From a virus (taxonomy: Duplodnaviria; Heunggongvirae; Uroviricota; Caudoviricetes): 55,436 bases of DNA. The translations under genes were made by a program, and so were the position numbers. Where the stretch lies: the IMG/VR virus record IMGVR_UViG_3300033153_012477, positions 1 to 55,436 of that record, one strand, 5' to 3'. The notes beneath the pieces are model-generated. The model was given only the letters and a program-made list of their open reading frames with translations. It did not search any database and was not told the DNA's origin. Shown piece after piece: positions 24,053-54,998 of this stretch (position 1 is the stretch's first letter; each line of letters starts with the position of its first letter).

Positions 24053-24454
24053 TTATGATAACTTTGATTTAACCAAAGTACTCACTAATCTTCCATCGAA
24101 TGGACCAACTATGTCTGCCTTAACAGCTTTCATAACCGCCCCCATATTACCTAATGCGAGGTGCTTATCCACTAGAGCAGAAATCTCTTCCTCACTCATA
24201 GCTTTAGGAATAAACTCCTCAATAATAGCTATTTCTTTTTTTAGATCTTCTAAAGCTTGATCTTTATATAAGTCCAGAGTCTTAGACATTTTTTTATGGT
24301 GACCCATAACAACTTCTAATTCTGGACTTGGTTTTTCGTTAATGTCGTTGTTCTGAAGAAGGGATTTGATATACTTTAGAGAATTTATTCTAAAACGGTC
24401 TTTACTCTTCATTGCTGACTTTATTTCTTCATTTATTCTTTCTTTAACTGACAC
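24053..24454 (-). CDS. GatB/YqeY domain protein
   Basis: IKSAMKSKD..., P..MSEEEI, MGAVMK, DGRLVS. Confidence 0.85.
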   Translation of the reverse strand: MSVKERINEEIKSAMKSKDRFRINSLKYIKSLLQNNDINEKPSPELEVVMGHHKKMSKTLDLYKDQALEDLKKEIAIIEEFIPKAMSEEEISALVDKHLALGNMGAVMKAVKADIVGPFDGRLVSTLVKSKLS

Positions 24455-26809: not shown

Positions 26810-27595
26810 CTATATAGGTTTGGAGAAAGATCTGTAAACCTTTTTTCCAGGAAACTTAACAGCCGCTAAAGGTCTGTCAGATCTAGCCCCACATCCCACA
26901 TCGATGAAGGCTCTGTGTTTAAAGAGCCTAGGTTGTCTATGATGCTTGAATTGATGACCGCAGATATGATACTTCTCCATATGCTTTATCTTACAAAGCT
27001 TGGAGTCTTCCATTGTAAATCCCCATCGCAAATCATATAGCATAGTTTCTAAGAAATAATCTTGACTTATTTTTTTACCAAAATCTAAATGATAAGATTC
27101 CAATCCTGAACAAAGAGATCTATCTAAAGGAGCGTGAGTGCATATGTATGCATCATTCTCATAGTAGGGGATAAGTCCATCAAGAAAATCTACCACCCCT
27201 CTAGCTAGACACTCTTGAGCCAACTCTTGCACAGACAGCATAGGAACACCCCAGTGAGCTTGCATGCTGTCCCAAGTACTAAAGGTATACTTAGTCCACC
27301 AGTTCTCGCCCTGAAGAGTAGTTATAAGCATTTCTTCATGATTACCCATAATAAAAAAAGCTTGATTAGGGTATTTATTTTTAAGTTCAATAAGAAGTTC
27401 AAAAACCCTAGCTGAATTAGGACCCCTATTGCAAAGATCTCCACAAAAAACAATATGGCACTTAGGGTTATTATCTAAAAAAGGAATAACCTGTTTTAAA
27501 ATATCCTCTAGTTTTTTATCTTCACCATGAATATCTCCGACAGCTATTAATTCCTCTGCGTGGTATAATTCTTTTTCACCATATCTGAATTCCAT
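26810..27595 (-). CDS. Metallophosphoesterase
   Basis: GDIHG, GDLCNRG, GNHE, GHQ. Confidence 0.88.
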   Translation of the reverse strand: MEFRYGEKELYHAEELIAVGDIHGEDKKLEDILKQVIPFLDNNPKCHIVFCGDLCNRGPNSARVFELLIELKNKYPNQAFFIMGNHEEMLITTLQGENWWTKYTFSTWDSMQAHWGVPMLSVQELAQECLARGVVDFLDGLIPYYENDAYICTHAPLDRSLCSGLESYHLDFGKKISQDYFLETMLYDLRWGFTMEDSKLCKIKHMEKYHICGHQFKHHRQPRLFKHRAFIDVGCGARSDRPLAAVKFPGKKVYRSFSKPI

Positions 27596-28548: not shown

Positions 28549-28649
28549 TGGAGCGTGAGATAGGATTTGAACCTATAACCTTCCTAGATCTTCTTTCGCT
28601 TTAACACGAGATTCTTCCTAGACTGCTGACCAGACTCAGCTTCACACGC
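28549..28649 (-). ncRNA. tRNA-like RNA with CCA and a 30-nt expanded anticodon region
   Basis: GCGTGTG/CTCACGC acceptor, D arm, ATAGG-TTCAAAT-CCTAT T arm; no 7-nt anticodon loop. Confidence 0.7.
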
Positions 28650-28654
28650 ATATA

Positions 28655-28793
28655 TGGTGGAGAGGGCAAGGATTTGAACCTGCGACACCCTGGTTTACCA
28701 CGAAGTATGTCTAATCTACGCCACGCTTTTAACAGCGGGTTCAAACGATAAGACTCTTTTCTCCAGGTGCTCTACCAACTGAGCTACCTCTCC
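28655..28793 (-). ncRNA. CCA-ended tRNA-like RNA carrying the Y RNA (Ro-binding) helix in place of the anticodon loop
   Basis: GGAGAGG/CCTCTCC-A-CCA, D and T arms, CCTGG/CCAGG stem enclosing 69 nt with ATCGTTTGAACC then GTGGCGTAGA. Confidence 0.8.
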
Positions 28794-29118: not shown

Positions 29119-29182
29119 TCCCTTGTCATGTGTTAAAATATAAGGCTTCTCCTAAAATTGCTTCCAAGAGAAGCCCTAAAAT

Positions 29183-29312
29183 GAGGGTTCAAACGATTAG
29201 ACAGTTTTTCGTGCTCTAACCAACTGAGCTACCCATCCCCGAAGGGATATAGTGGGACTCGAACCCACGCCACGTCGTTACAAGCGATGAAAGTCTAAAA
29301 TCTACGCCACTC
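29183..29312 (-). ncRNA. YrlA-type Y RNA 1 (permuted tRNA mimic)
   Basis: 5' GTGGCGTAGA; T arm; UUCG-capped acceptor-like stem; D arm; 3' ATCGTTTGAACC; next to a Ro60 gene. Confidence 0.85.
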
Positions 29313-29346
29313 ACATTCATTTTTTTTTAAAATAAAGATATAGAAA

Positions 29347-29478
29347 GACGGGTTCAAACGAACAGACAAATTTTAGTGCTTTATCCAGTTAAGCTACAAA
29401 ATCCCGAAGGAGATTGAGGGGATTCGAACCCACTATCACTCGTTTAGCATACGAAGTAAGCCTACTCTACGCCACGTC
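29347..29478 (-). ncRNA. YrlA-type Y RNA 2
   Basis: Same architecture; termini extended by AAGATATAGAA/TTCTATATCTT pairing. Confidence 0.85.
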
Positions 29479-29497: not shown

Positions 29498-30397
29498 TTA
29501 AATTTCAATGTTCTTGATAAAGTCAATAGCATTGCTACCGTTCTCTATCGCTTCCATAACCTCGAAGACCTTTTCAGACCAACCTGAGATTAGGTGAACA
29601 TTTTTCTCAGCAATAACATCCAGAGGAGCTGTTCCATAACCACTTAAATCGAATAAATACAATTTAGAGTTAGGGAATCTATTTCTGTACTTCTGCCACT
29701 CAGAGTTCATAGTTGCGTTTCCACCTCTAGAATTCCAAAGTTGACAATCAGTAAAGATCATTACTTTATCTACTTCGATGTTCCTTTTATTCAACCACTC
29801 TAGTACTTTGTACCCGTTAGTAGAATAACCAACCTCTCCCTCTCTCTTATAAAGATTAAGGGTATTAGCTAGAACATCTCCAGAGCTAAAGTCTGTAACT
29901 TTCCAAGTATCTCCAAAAAAACCTGTAACAACATTCTTACATTTTGTTTGAAGAAGTTGCCCAAGAAGTAACCCAATATCATATAACTGAACTTGGGACT
30001 TTGGAGAAATAGGTTGTTGCATAGATCCTGACACGTCACTTGCTATCAGCACTCTAGTATCCTCACCAAAACCTTTAAGATTTTCCACAGAAGCTTTCAC
30101 TGCTTTTTCAATAGCTTTGTTAAGCTGTTTAGTAGCAAAAGGATCTAGGTTAGTTGTCACTGTTTCTGTGTAAGAACTTCCCCAAAACCCTCTCCTGTGT
30201 GAAGGTTCATTACCTTCTAAGTTTCTGTAAGCAGACCAAAACCTAAAAGGCAATTGCTTAGATCTTTGAACTGCTTTAGGATCAGAAAGTTTTTCACAAA
30301 CAAGATTAACTAAATCTTTTGAAGCACCATACTTAAGAATATTTCTCAAGTTACGCAACAACGCCGAAAGCTTTGTTCTTAGCTTCTTCCGAAGCAT
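29498..30397 (-). pseudogene. rsr: Ro60/Rsr (TROVE) C-terminal fragment with vWA domain
   Basis: ALLRNLRNI, LPFRFWSAY, MIDAS DVSGSM, IFTDCQ; out of frame with the N-terminal part. Confidence 0.85.
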
Positions 30398-31064
30398 AAG
30401 TTTGCTGCCCTAATTTTGAGAATTCAACTTCCCAAGTATAAGGTTCAGCCAAATCATCCTCAACAAGTTTCTTGAAAAGATCTTTCTGCTTATCATCCAT
30501 TGGTTTTGGATGAGTCAAGAAGAGTGCATCCCTAAGCTTGATTGCTCCGTCTCTGTTGTACTTTGCTAACTGATACTCATCAAACTTATGAAAAGACTCC
30601 GCTACTGCTTTTTTAAGAGCATTAGGAAGTTTTCCTAGTTTTTTTGTTTCAGTTCTCTCATTTGCATGAGCAAAGTATGACAAGATTTCAGTGATCTCAT
30701 CAGCTCTTTGAATAACTCTAGTTGTAGATTTCTTCAAAGTTTTAGGATTACGTTGTCCTTTTTGATTCCCCTCATTGAAGTTCTTCAAAAGCTCCACCAT
30801 TAATACTAAAGGCACTGATCTTAGATACATCTTCTCTCTTGCATACACCGCCAGTTTACAAACTAGTTCAGGATCAACCTTAGAGATTGTATCTCGTAAA
30901 CGAGATAACTGGTCGTCTGCCTTAGGTGAATAAAACTTAGGTTGCAAAGACGCAGTACAAACCTGAGAATACAAATCCATTTCGGGGGTCATGGTGTAAG
31001 CCACAGCTCCTTCGTGGTTTGAAGTTTTTCTAGGGTTAGTACGTTGTTGATTGAAACGTGACAT
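30351..31064 (-). pseudogene. rsr: Ro60/Rsr (TROVE) N-terminal fragment
   Basis: NHEGAVAY, AVYAREKMYLRS, FDEYQLAKY, LRDALFLTHPKP, TWEVE; start after GGAGG. Confidence 0.88.
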
Positions 31065-31081
31065 TTCATCCTCCATAATAA

Positions 31082-31148
31082 AAAATAGGGTTCAAATGAT
31101 AAGAGGTTTATTTCCCCAAGAAGTATCTCTTATCTACGCCACTATTTT
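31082..31148 (-). ncRNA. Minimal Y-like hairpin in the rsr 5' leader
   Basis: AAAATAG-TGGCGTA-GATAAGAG-ATACTTC...CTCTTATC-ATTTGAACC-CTATTTT. Confidence 0.75.
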
Positions 31149-31151
31149 GTT

Positions 31152-54922: not shown

Positions 54923-54998
54923 GCTCCTATAGCTCAGTTGGCAGAGCAGCATTTTCTAAAAATGTTTGTCGCCAGTTCGACCCTGGCTAGGAGCACCA
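54923..54998 (+). tRNA. Amber suppressor tRNA, anticodon CTA
   Basis: 76-nt cloverleaf; GCATT-TTCTAAA-AATGT places CTA at 34-36 (54956-54958); CCA end. Confidence 0.88.

What the first reader, a model, noticed from the sequence alone, without database searches (positions are those of the whole stretch)
28655..28793. A CCA-ended tRNA whose anticodon loop is replaced by the Ro-binding helix (an un-permuted Y RNA)
This is a full tRNA frame with a 7-bp acceptor, A73-CCA, and D and T arms. Its anticodon stem encloses 69 nt containing the same two strands that form the termini of the neighbouring YrlAs, but in reversed order (ATCGTTTGAACC, loop GCTGTTAAAAGC, GTGGCGTAGA). Known YrlA RNAs are circular permutations with a closed acceptor stem and free ends at the Ro helix. 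This is the opposite permutation, so it could be processed by RNase P, possibly aminoacylated or EF-Tu bound, and tethered to Ro60. It may be an intermediate between tRNA and Y RNA.
Basis: partly seen in the sequence, partly recalled or inferred. Interest (0 to 1): 0.85.

Follow-up and report, generated by a model that had tools for sequence, protein, structure and literature searches.

The report
tRNA-ended Y RNA beside phage Ro60
A large uncultured phage and its relatives encode, next to their Ro60 gene and ordinary Y RNAs, a conserved 139-nt RNA with the ends and shape of a normal tRNA that carries the Ro60-docking helix where the anticodon loop should be. I did not find this wiring of the Y RNA family described in print.

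Summary
Window 28655-28793 (minus strand) is a full tRNA frame: 7-bp acceptor, A73-CCA, and canonical D and T arms (Rfam tRNA 45.2 bits). Its 5-bp anticodon stem encloses 69 nt. These 69 nt hold both strands of the Ro60-binding helix of the two neighbouring YrlA Y RNAs, in reversed order and closed by a hairpin.

When the sequence is rotated in silico it aligns end to end with the YrlAs (z 8-16, against 1-6 unrotated).

Homologues occur in six further phage contigs (six distinct sequences), always between rsr or its Y RNAs and a conserved radical-SAM or metallophosphoesterase gene. 22 of 34 base pairs show compensatory changes and 97.5% of pair cells are kept. The CGUAG core of the Ro motif is invariant. 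The closing hairpin differs in sequence between copies.

An intron is unlikely. No conserved anticodon remains after removal, and no splicing endonuclease was found in the 192 kb held.

Best reading: a circularly permuted YrlA paralogue with tRNA connectivity. It is probably matured like a tRNA and bound by the phage Rsr. It looks like a derived form rather than a tRNA-to-Y intermediate. Ro60 binding, expression and charging are untested.

Earlier unpublished notes of this scan report similar tRNA-shaped Y-like RNAs in other phages. I found none in the papers I could search.

The parts
28655..28793 (-). Whole tRNA-ordered Y RNA ('tRNA-Y'), 139 nt, ending in A73-CCA
   Evidence: Rfam tRNA 45.2 bits with a 69-nt insert. 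Model R1 scores 181.7 bits here and 92-124 bits on six homologous contigs. It is the only copy in the 192.7-kb record.
28787..28793 (-). Acceptor stem, 5' strand (positions 1-7)
   Evidence: Seven pairs, 100% paired in six sequences, 3 with compensatory changes. U at -1 in 6 of 6 copies.
28655..28665 (-). Acceptor stem 3' strand, discriminator A73 and encoded CCA
   Evidence: ACCA is encoded in 5 of 6 homologues; L231 has ACCU.
28769..28784 (-). D arm (GCUC, 8-nt loop with G18G19, GAGC)
   Evidence: The stem is invariant in six sequences. The arm differs by one inserted base from the D arm of the neighbouring YrlA-2.
28763..28767 (-). Anticodon-stem 5' strand (positions 27-31)
   Evidence: Pairs with 28689-28693. 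Five pairs, 100% paired, 4 with compensatory changes.
28694..28762 (-). 69-nt insert replacing the anticodon loop: a complete Ro-binding module in permuted order, closed by a hairpin
28740..28754 (-). Inner helix strand (positions 40-47) and the 3'-strand loop GUUUGAA of the Ro module
   Evidence: The inner helix is 4+3 bp around a U.U mismatch, with 4 compensatory pairs. RNAalifold chose the same register independently on a MAFFT alignment.
28721..28739 (-). CC/GG pairs, bulged U and the closing hairpin (CGCU, loop GUUAAA, AGCG) that replaces the open 5'/3' termini of YrlA
   Evidence: All 6 pairs show compensatory changes. The closing stem-loop differs in sequence between homologues.
28709..28720 (-). 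Ro motif core CGUAG (GNCGAAN0-1G type, with A changed to U) and the return strand of the inner helix
   Evidence: CGUAG is invariant in six homologues and in the neighbouring YrlAs. Motif definition from PMC4201824.
28701..28707 (-). UACUUCG, the clade-specific conserved element that follows the Ro helix
   Evidence: Present in the clade's YrlAs, minimal Y RNAs and tRNA-Y. CUUCG is invariant in six tRNA-Y copies.
28689..28693 (-). Anticodon-stem 3' strand (positions 101-105)
28666..28683 (-). T arm (5-bp stem with one bulged U in this copy; loop UUCAAAU)
   Evidence: All 5 pairs show compensatory changes. The stem is perfect in L226, L230 and L231.
29349..29476 (-). YrlA-like Y RNA 1 (ordinary permuted topology)
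   Evidence: Rfam YrlA 23.1 bits, below the gathering score of 69. Sequence, colinear alignment.
29183..29312 (-). YrlA-like Y RNA 2, followed by a terminator-like hairpin at 29141-29178
   Evidence: Rfam YrlA 26.9 bits.
30351..31076 (-). rsr (Ro60) N-terminal half, 241 aa
   Evidence: TROVE domain, E 2.5e-13. Alignment to intact homologues.
29498..30397 (-). rsr (Ro60) C-terminal half, 299 aa (end of TROVE plus the Ro60 vWA domain)
28549..28649 (-). Second CCA-ended tRNA-like RNA, 5 nt downstream, with a 42-nt non-Ro insert
   Evidence: Rfam tRNA 32.2 bits. Homologues at L092:3614-3719, L226:791-893 and L228:1364-1464.
26810..27595 (-). Calcineurin-like metallophosphoesterase, the conserved downstream neighbour of the RNA cluster
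   Evidence: Pfam Metallophos, PHROG hits. Syntenic in L092, L218, L226, L229, L230 and L231.

Best explanation
This is a Y RNA of the YrlA kind whose chain has been circularly permuted back into tRNA order.

Shown:
- It folds as an L-shaped tRNA body: acceptor, D arm, a 5-bp anticodon stem and a T arm.
- The distal end of the anticodon stem opens into the same Ro60-binding module that the neighbouring YrlAs form with their 5' and 3' termini. Going outward from the anticodon stem, the module has an A-rich linker, an inner helix, an internal loop holding the invariant CGUAG motif, two G-C/C-G pairs and a bulged U.
- Here that helix is closed by a short, freely varying hairpin, and the free ends sit at the acceptor stem.
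- The RNA is conserved in a clade of phages, always beside rsr.

Inferred:
- It is cut out of a longer transcript like a tRNA. In this phage it starts one base after the thioredoxin stop codon. RNase P would cut at the conserved U(-1)/G1, and the 3' end is an encoded CCA kept in repair by the host CCA-adding enzyme.
- It is not spliced.
- The phage Rsr binds the closed helix as it binds YrlA. The tRNA body then serves as the effector or tether domain of the particle.
- Compared with YrlA, the new wiring gives tRNA-type ends, which resist exonucleases. It also exposes a real acceptor/CCA end to whatever tRNA-end-recognising factor the phage's RNA-repair or RNA-turnover set uses (RtcB and a 2',3'-phosphoesterase-like gene are in the window).
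- It most likely arose from adjacent YrlA units, or from a YrlA plus a tRNA, by keeping the D-arm half of one unit, the spacer, and the T-arm half of the next.
For: Anatomy: Rfam tRNA hit with a 69-nt insert. Sequence and fold.

Permutation:
- The rotated sequence aligns colinearly with six YrlAs at 57-71% identity.
- Alignment z is 8-16 for the rotated form, against 1-6 for the native order.
- Simple insertion of a Y hairpin into a tRNA would give the opposite strand order.

Conservation:
- Homologues at 92-124 bits in L226/L229, L092, L218, L230 and L231.
- Each lies between rsr or its Y RNAs and the rSAM/Metallophos genes.
- Pairwise identity is only 70-76%, about the same as the flanking coding DNA.
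- 97.5% of pair cells are kept and 22 of 34 pairs show compensatory changes. Slid-partner controls give at most 3, and 0 of 500 shuffles reach the observed values.
- RNAalifold on an independent MAFFT alignment of three copies recovers the same helices.

Ro module:
- CGUAG and CUUCG are invariant. The variable N of the GNCG.. motif covaries with its partner on the other strand.
- The same module is seen in the clade's YrlAs and minimal Y RNAs.
- Motif definition from PMC4201824.

rsr: it is adjacent and intact in L229, L230 and L231.

Processing signals: U(-1) in 6 of 6 copies, encoded CCA in 5 of 6.

Precedents:
- M. smegmatis YrlA is cut by RNase P in its acceptor loop and receives CCA (PMC4201824).
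- YrlA is described as lacking a free CCA end and resembling a circularly permuted tRNA (10.1101/312249).

Origin:
- L216 has a second YrlA where tRNA-Y sits in the other loci.
- In tandem YrlA arrays the model aligns weakly across unit junctions.
Against: - No expression, end-mapping or binding data.
- Ro60 binding rests on motif homology. The motif differs from the published consensus at one position (U for A).
- The helix end is closed, whereas all characterised Y RNAs have free ends there. One paper's introduction says Ro60 pries the Y RNA stem apart (PMC12135203), which a closed end might hinder.
- In this phage and in L092, Rsr is in two pieces, so a working Ro60 is not certain here.
- The T stem is imperfect in the window copy and in L092.
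- The variable-loop plus T-arm segment resembles the phage's tRNA-Pro and tRNA-Tyr (16 of 23) more than the YrlAs do (7-14 of 23). The evolutionary route is therefore unresolved.
- The covariation alignment was fitted to my model, which biases pair counts upward.
Confidence: 0.62

Rival explanations
1. It is a decoding tRNA gene interrupted by a 62-69-nt intron. The intron is removed and the halves are joined by the phage RtcB, giving a working tRNA. The Y-like sequence is only the intron.
For: The phage encodes RtcB, the ligase of protein-dependent tRNA splicing. In L226 and L218 the first six insert bases plus the last base could be read as anticodon loops with U33 (my reading of the rows printed). 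An earlier scan note on another phage left splicing unresolved.
Against: The implied anticodon is not conserved. ARAGORN gives Tyr, Tyr and Phe with different intron positions for three homologues. The window and L092 copies have no U33 at either possible junction. Bacterial tRNA-Tyr has a long variable arm (established knowledge); this RNA has a 5-nt variable loop. The 'intron' is the most constrained part: invariant CGUAG and CUUCG, and 10 of its 13 pairs covary. It is too short for a group I intron (established knowledge), and I see no bulge-helix-bulge at the junctions. No tRNA splicing endonuclease (PF01974) was found in the 192 kb held, though the record is only about 44% complete.
Confidence: 0.07
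2. It is a tRNA-shaped decoy or sponge that acts without Ro60. For example, it could soak up host tRNA-targeting defence nucleases or tRNA-modifying enzymes. The Ro-like helix would then be an inherited scaffold with another partner.
For: The phage carries many tRNAs, a tmRNA and RtcB, which is typical of counter-measures to tRNA attack. A second CCA-ended tRNA-like RNA without a Ro motif sits 5 nt downstream and is conserved. L228 keeps that RNA although rsr is gone. Rsr is split in this phage.
Against: The Ro motif core is invariant in all six copies, and the flanking pairs covary to keep the same bulged helix as in the YrlAs. That constraint is hard to explain without the shared partner. 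The RNA lacks the anticodon loop that most known tRNA-directed defence nucleases cut (established knowledge). In L228, the one locus without rsr, tRNA-Y has lost its 5' half. This is co-loss with rsr.
Confidence: 0.15
3. It is a precursor that is re-cut. The closing hairpin is opened, and possibly the acceptor ends are joined by RtcB, so that the mature RNA is a two-piece or YrlA-order molecule with free ends at the Ro helix.
For: Permuted tRNA genes of algae mature through circular intermediates, and the YrlA structure paper raises such processing as a possibility for YrlA (10.1101/312249). M. smegmatis YrlA exists as two base-paired pieces (PMC4201824). RtcB is present.
Against: The closing hairpin has no conserved sequence or size that a nuclease could recognise (tetraloops to hexaloops, and a GNRA type in L218). 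The encoded CCA and the conserved U(-1) point to ordinary tRNA-type ends as the mature ends.
Confidence: 0.06
4. It is a decaying recombination product of the repeated Y RNA genes and has no function.
For: Repeated Y modules do recombine. L228 carries a fusion that keeps only the 3' half.
Against: Six diverged copies keep all six helices, with 22 compensatory pairs and 97.5% pairing, at 70-76% sequence identity.
Confidence: 0.03

Closest known systems
YrlA Y RNAs of bacteria and phages (Rfam RF02553; Chen et al. 2014, PMC4201824; Wang et al. 2018, bioRxiv 10.1101/312249)
   Same: Encoded beside rsr. Same two modules: a bulged Ro60-binding helix with the GNCGAA(N)G-type motif, and an L-shaped tRNA-like body with canonical D and T loops, joined through the anticodon-stem position. 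Two ordinary members lie 390-680 nt upstream in the same locus and align colinearly with the rotated sequence.
   Different: Chain connectivity. YrlA runs Ro 5' strand, T arm, closed acceptor hairpin, D arm, Ro 3' strand, and 'lacks a free CCA end'. This RNA runs acceptor 5' strand, D arm, Ro 3' strand, closing hairpin, Ro 5' strand, T arm, acceptor 3' strand, ACCA. It also has a true 5-bp anticodon stem. Rfam's YrlA model does not match it at all.
[quoted passage not shown]
   Same: A Ro60-bound Y RNA that ends up with a 7-bp acceptor stem and a free CCA end.
   Different: There the free end is made after transcription, by cutting the closed acceptor loop. The result is two base-paired pieces that still have open ends at the Ro helix. 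Here the tRNA ends are encoded, the molecule is one chain and the Ro helix is closed.
Deinococcus radiodurans Yrn1 (PMC4201824)
   Same: A Y RNA in which the order of the D-like and T-like arms relative to the 5' end differs from YrlA. Alternative wirings of tRNA-like Y RNAs are therefore known.
   Different: In Yrn1 the Ro helix takes the place of the acceptor stem and the termini are at the Ro helix. There is no acceptor stem and no CCA.
Intron-containing and permuted tRNA genes (archaeal and eukaryal bulge-helix-bulge introns; permuted tRNA genes of Cyanidioschyzon, as discussed in 10.1101/312249)
   Same: A tRNA gene frame with extra sequence at the anticodon loop, which gene finders label as an intron. 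Circular permutation of tRNA-type genes is a known phenomenon.
   Different: No conserved anticodon, no splice motif and no endonuclease were found. The insert is the conserved functional module.
b7a-tRNA (band-7-associated tRNA-like RNA; Burroughs and Aravind 2016, as cited in 10.1101/312249)
   Same: A predicted tRNA-order ncRNA of RNA-repair loci, said to lie occasionally beside Rsr.
   Different: I could not compare them: the paper is not held. As summarised, b7a-tRNA strongly resembles an authentic tRNA and is not said to carry a Ro-binding helix. The downstream tRNA-like RNA at 28549-28649 may be the nearer match.

Membership tests
YrlA (Rfam RF02553) | Encoded next to an rsr (Ro60) gene | tested here: met
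   TROVE and Ro60-vWA ORFs lie at 31076-29498, about 700 nt upstream on the same strand. The same linkage holds in six other contigs.
YrlA (Rfam RF02553) | Ro60-binding module: bulged helix carrying GNCGAAN0-1G | tested here: inconclusive
   The helix and loop are present and covary. The motif reads GGCGUAG, with one change from the consensus. The same variant occurs in the locus's own YrlAs. Binding itself was not tested.
YrlA (Rfam RF02553) | Ro helix formed by the RNA's 5' and 3' termini; acceptor-like stem closed by a loop; T arm 5' of the D arm | tested here: not met
   The Ro helix is closed by a hairpin, the acceptor is open with ACCA, and the D arm precedes the T arm.
YrlA (Rfam RF02553) | Score at or above the family's gathering threshold (69 bits) | tested here: not met
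   No YrlA match on 28655-28793 even at E up to 10. The two neighbouring ordinary YrlAs reach only 23-27 bits, so the model is weak for this clade in any case.
YrlA (Rfam RF02553) | tRNA-like L-shaped domain with conserved D-loop/T-loop tertiary nucleotides | tested here: met
   U8, A14, G15:C48, G18G19 and U54U55C56A58 are present (read from the sequence). The D stem is invariant.
tRNA (Rfam RF00005) | Cloverleaf with 7-bp acceptor, D and T arms, discriminator and CCA; score above the gathering threshold (29 bits) | tested here: met
   45.2 bits over model positions 1-71.
tRNA (Rfam RF00005) | 7-nt anticodon loop with U33 and an anticodon conserved among orthologues | tested here: not met
   69 nt stand in place of the loop. 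The residual 'anticodons' differ between homologues (Tyr, Tyr, Phe), and the window copy has no U33.
tRNA (Rfam RF00005) | Aminoacylation and use in translation | not testable with these tools
   Read from the sequence, it has no G3:U70, no G-1 and no long variable arm. By established identity rules no anticodon-independent synthetase is predicted to charge it.
Intron-containing tRNA gene | Removable intron (group I fold, or bulge-helix-bulge with a splicing endonuclease) leaving a canonical anticodon loop | tested here: not met
   The insert is 62-69 nt. No PF01974 endonuclease in the 192 kb held (the record is incomplete). No conserved loop remains after removal. The insert is under structural selection.

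The most novel reading that the evidence does not exclude
The free, encoded CCA end is used. The RNA would be charged, or at least bound by a CCA-end or acceptor-recognising factor such as EF-Tu, a synthetase, the CCA-adding enzyme or RtcB, while Ro60 sits on the anticodon-side arm. The phage would then physically couple Ro60-based RNA surveillance to the tRNA or translation machinery. More broadly, Y RNAs and tRNA-shaped RNAs would interconvert by circular permutation within phage rsr loci, giving a living example of the proposed tRNA-dimer origin of Y RNAs.
Probability: 0.12. Interest if true: 0.9.

Novelty: new variant of a known kind. Interest (0 to 1): 0.7.

Why it matters
Two questions about bacterial Y RNAs remain open: what the tRNA-like domain is for, and how these RNAs arose from tRNA. 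In this locus ordinary YrlAs and a tRNA-ordered paralogue sit side by side, with the same Ro module, and are conserved across a phage clade.

This offers a natural comparison for the first question. If both forms bind Rsr, any difference in their partners must come from the free acceptor/CCA end.

It also bears on origin. The two topologies can be reached from each other by recombination between repeated units, which is the kind of event the tRNA-dimer origin model needs.

There is a practical point too. Gene finders report such genes as intron-bearing tRNAs of inconsistent isotype, so phage tRNA inventories may be miscounted.

Tried and rejected
Searches that found no further copies:
- Exact-pattern scans for 'Ro 3' strand, short spacer, Ro 5' strand' in IMG/VR and JGI metagenomes returned about 200 loci. 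All but my own L092 were chance hits or tandem Y RNA arrays. A first script filter was too crude and even missed the true cases, so it was replaced by the covariance model.
- Rsr-based locus search in IMG/VR gave only two distant relatives without the form. The Metallophos-based search there gave nothing.
- A pattern specific to tRNA-Y found nothing in 185,579 prokaryote genomes. In IMG/VR it found only a tandem YrlA array.
- blastn against cultured phages gave no relative of the RNA.

Structure:
- My first register for the inner Ro helix (GUUUG/UAGAU) was dropped. The AUC/GAU register has compensatory changes in L218 and L231 and was chosen independently by RNAalifold.
- The small UACU..GGUA hairpin predicted by RNAfold is not supported in L092 and was left unpaired.

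Other:
- The attempt to decide whether the tRNA body comes from a YrlA or from a true tRNA was inconclusive.
- The sigma-70 promoter scan is uninformative for a phage whose closest Rsr relatives are in Bacteroidota.
- Burroughs and Aravind 2016 and the two Sim/Wolin reviews are not held, so b7a-tRNA could not be compared.

Full report
**What is there.** The window is the first 55 kb of a 192.7-kb IMG/VR phage record. CheckV rates it about 44% complete and its GC content is 35.7%. It holds ten tRNA genes, a tmRNA and RtcB.

On the minus strand, from 31076 down to 26810, the order is as follows:
- rsr (Ro60), present as two overlapping ORFs;
- two YrlA-like Y RNAs (29476-29349 and 29312-29183);
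- a terminator-like hairpin;
- thioredoxin;
- the element in question (28793-28655);
- a second CCA-ended tRNA-like RNA, 5 nt further on (28649-28549);
- a radical-SAM gene;
- a calcineurin-like phosphoesterase.

**Checking the observation.** Rfam's tRNA model matches 28793-28658 end to end at 45.2 bits (gathering score 29), with 69 nt where the 7-nt anticodon loop should be. Read directly from the sequence, the RNA has a perfect 7-bp acceptor stem, A73 and an encoded CCA. It has the canonical D arm, a 5-bp anticodon stem (CCUGG/CCAGG), the variable loop GUGUC and a T arm with one bulged U. All the usual tertiary nucleotides are present.

The insert contains first the strand that ends the neighbouring YrlAs, then a 4-bp hairpin with a 6-nt loop, then the strand that begins the YrlAs.

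**It is a circular permutation of YrlA.** I cut the RNA in the closing loop, dropped ACCA and joined the acceptor strands. The rotated sequence aligns colinearly with six YrlAs from this and related phages at 57-71% identity. Global alignment scores lie 8-16 standard deviations above shuffles for the rotated form, against 1-6 for the native order.

Every conserved piece of this clade's Y RNA module is kept. These are the A-rich linker after the D arm, the inner helix, the 3'-strand loop, two G-C/C-G pairs with a bulged U, the CGUAG motif and the UACUUCG element. The same pieces occur in YrlAs and in minimal, tRNA-less Y RNAs of relatives.

The motif matches the published GNCGAAN0-1G Ro60-binding motif with one change (PMC4201824).

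A plain insertion of a Y RNA hairpin into a tRNA gene would put the 5' strand first. The observed order is what results from reading across the junction of two adjacent units.

**Conservation.** A covariance model built from the window copy found full-length homologues at 92-124 bits in these loci:
- L092:3472-3609;
- L218:1132-1265;
- L226:651-787, identical to L229:2300-2436;
- L230:2411-2545;
- L231:3350-3487.

I reached these loci through the closest Rsr and Metallophos homologues. In each, the RNA lies after rsr and its ordinary Y RNAs and before the rSAM or Metallophos gene.

The copies are only 70-76% identical, about the same as the flanking coding DNA. Even so, 97.5% of pair cells form standard pairs and 22 of 34 pairs carry compensatory double changes. 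With slid partners the count is at most 3, and no shuffle out of 500 reaches the observed values.

That alignment was fitted to my model, which favours it. RNAalifold on an independent MAFFT alignment of three copies gave the same six helices, with 10 compensatory pairs. It also corrected my register for the inner Ro helix.

The closing hairpin differs in sequence between copies, as expected if its only job is to close what are open termini in YrlA. CGUAG and CUUCG are invariant. The free N of the motif covaries with its partner.

About 160 other Y RNA loci contained only ordinary or tandem YrlAs. The more distant relative L216 has a second YrlA at the position of tRNA-Y.

**Not an intron.** ARAGORN with introns allowed labels three homologues Tyr, Tyr and Phe, with different intron positions. 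The window copy has no U33 at either junction. The RNA lacks the long variable arm of bacterial tRNA-Tyr. The insert is too short for a group I intron. No splicing endonuclease is found in the 192 kb held. The 'intron' is the part under the strongest constraint.

**Likely mechanism.** The RNA keeps what RNase P and the tRNA end-repair system use: a 12-bp acceptor/T stack, an intact elbow, U at -1 in all six copies, and an encoded CCA in five of six. In this phage it begins one base after the thioredoxin stop codon, so it has to be cut out of a longer transcript.

I therefore read it as a Y RNA matured like a tRNA. The phage Rsr would dock on the closed helix, and the tRNA body would act as the effector domain, now with a real acceptor end.

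Precedent comes from M. smegmatis YrlA, which RNase P cuts and which then receives CCA. [quoted passage not shown]

Binding, expression and charging are all untested here.

**Origin.** The form is confined to a narrow clade, and neighbouring lineages have tandem YrlAs. It is therefore more likely derived from YrlA units than an intermediate on the way from tRNA to Y RNA.

The variable-loop plus T-arm segment looks somewhat more like the phage's own tRNAs, so a YrlA-tRNA recombinant cannot be excluded.

L228 shows that such recombination happens. There rsr and the 5' half of tRNA-Y are gone, and a Ro 5' strand is fused directly to the 3' half.

**Novelty.** I found no description of a tRNA-ordered, CCA-encoding Y RNA in the searchable literature. 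The b7a-tRNA paper could not be read. Earlier unpublished notes of this scan describe similar tRNA-shaped Y-like RNAs beside Ro60 genes in other phages. I did not test those. This locus adds the clearest case, because canonical and permuted forms share one module in one operon.

Noticed in passing
window 28549-28649 (-); L092:3614-3719; L226:791-893; L228:1364-1464: A second CCA-ended tRNA-like RNA lies 4-5 nt after tRNA-Y. It has acceptor, D and T arms and a 5-bp anticodon-type stem. That stem encloses a 25-43-nt insert without a Ro motif, and the insert differs between phages. It is conserved in four loci and is retained in L228, where rsr is absent. It may be the nearer match to the 'b7a-tRNA' idea.
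   Followed up: partly
window 29498-31076 (-); L092:800-3187: Rsr is split at the same site in this phage and in L092. In L092 a 258-aa ORF with ROS/MucR and NUMOD3 motifs, like a homing endonuclease, sits between the halves. Here the halves overlap by 47 nt out of frame and about 10 residues are missing. Close relatives (L229, L230, L231) have intact proteins of 529-540 aa. This looks like the scar of a mobile endonuclease gene. Whether the two pieces assemble is unknown.
   Followed up: partly
L228:1125-1516: A relative with a 79%-identical Metallophos has no rsr in front of it. It keeps only a Ro 5' strand fused to the 3' half of tRNA-Y, followed by the second tRNA-like RNA. This is apparently a deletion by recombination between repeated Y modules.
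   Followed up: partly
window 29183-29476 (-); L092:3278-3412; L218:924-1058: The clade's ordinary YrlAs carry an anticodon-arm-like hairpin between the Ro 5' strand and the T arm, with 7-nt loops such as CUUGUAA or CUGUUAA. Its 5' strand is the conserved UACUUCG element. In tRNA-Y the matching 3' strand pairs instead with a new strand after the D arm.
   Followed up: partly
window about 31085-31150 (-): A minimal Y RNA-type hairpin (GGCGUAGA..UACUUC, no tRNA domain) lies in the leader just upstream of rsr. A similar one precedes rsr in L092.
   Followed up: no
window 24053-24454 (-); L092:5926-6327; L228:3954-4355; L231:5679-6212: A YqeY/GatB-tail-like protein recurs a few kb downstream of the RNA cluster. 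RRM proteins recur in L092, L216 and L228, and a KH-domain protein in L216. The YqeY domain is tRNA-associated, so it is a candidate partner for the tRNA-like bodies.
   Followed up: no
L221:180-1130 (IMG/VR 3300043172_001415): Another phage has at least five tandem YrlA-like units with a variant motif (GUGUUGCAG..UUACUUCG) and 7-8-bp closed acceptor stems. The tRNA-Y model aligns across each unit junction, which shows how a junction-spanning permutant could arise.
   Followed up: partly
window 54923-54998 (+): A tRNA with anticodon CUA, called 'Pyl' by ARAGORN, is a possible amber suppressor.
   Followed up: no
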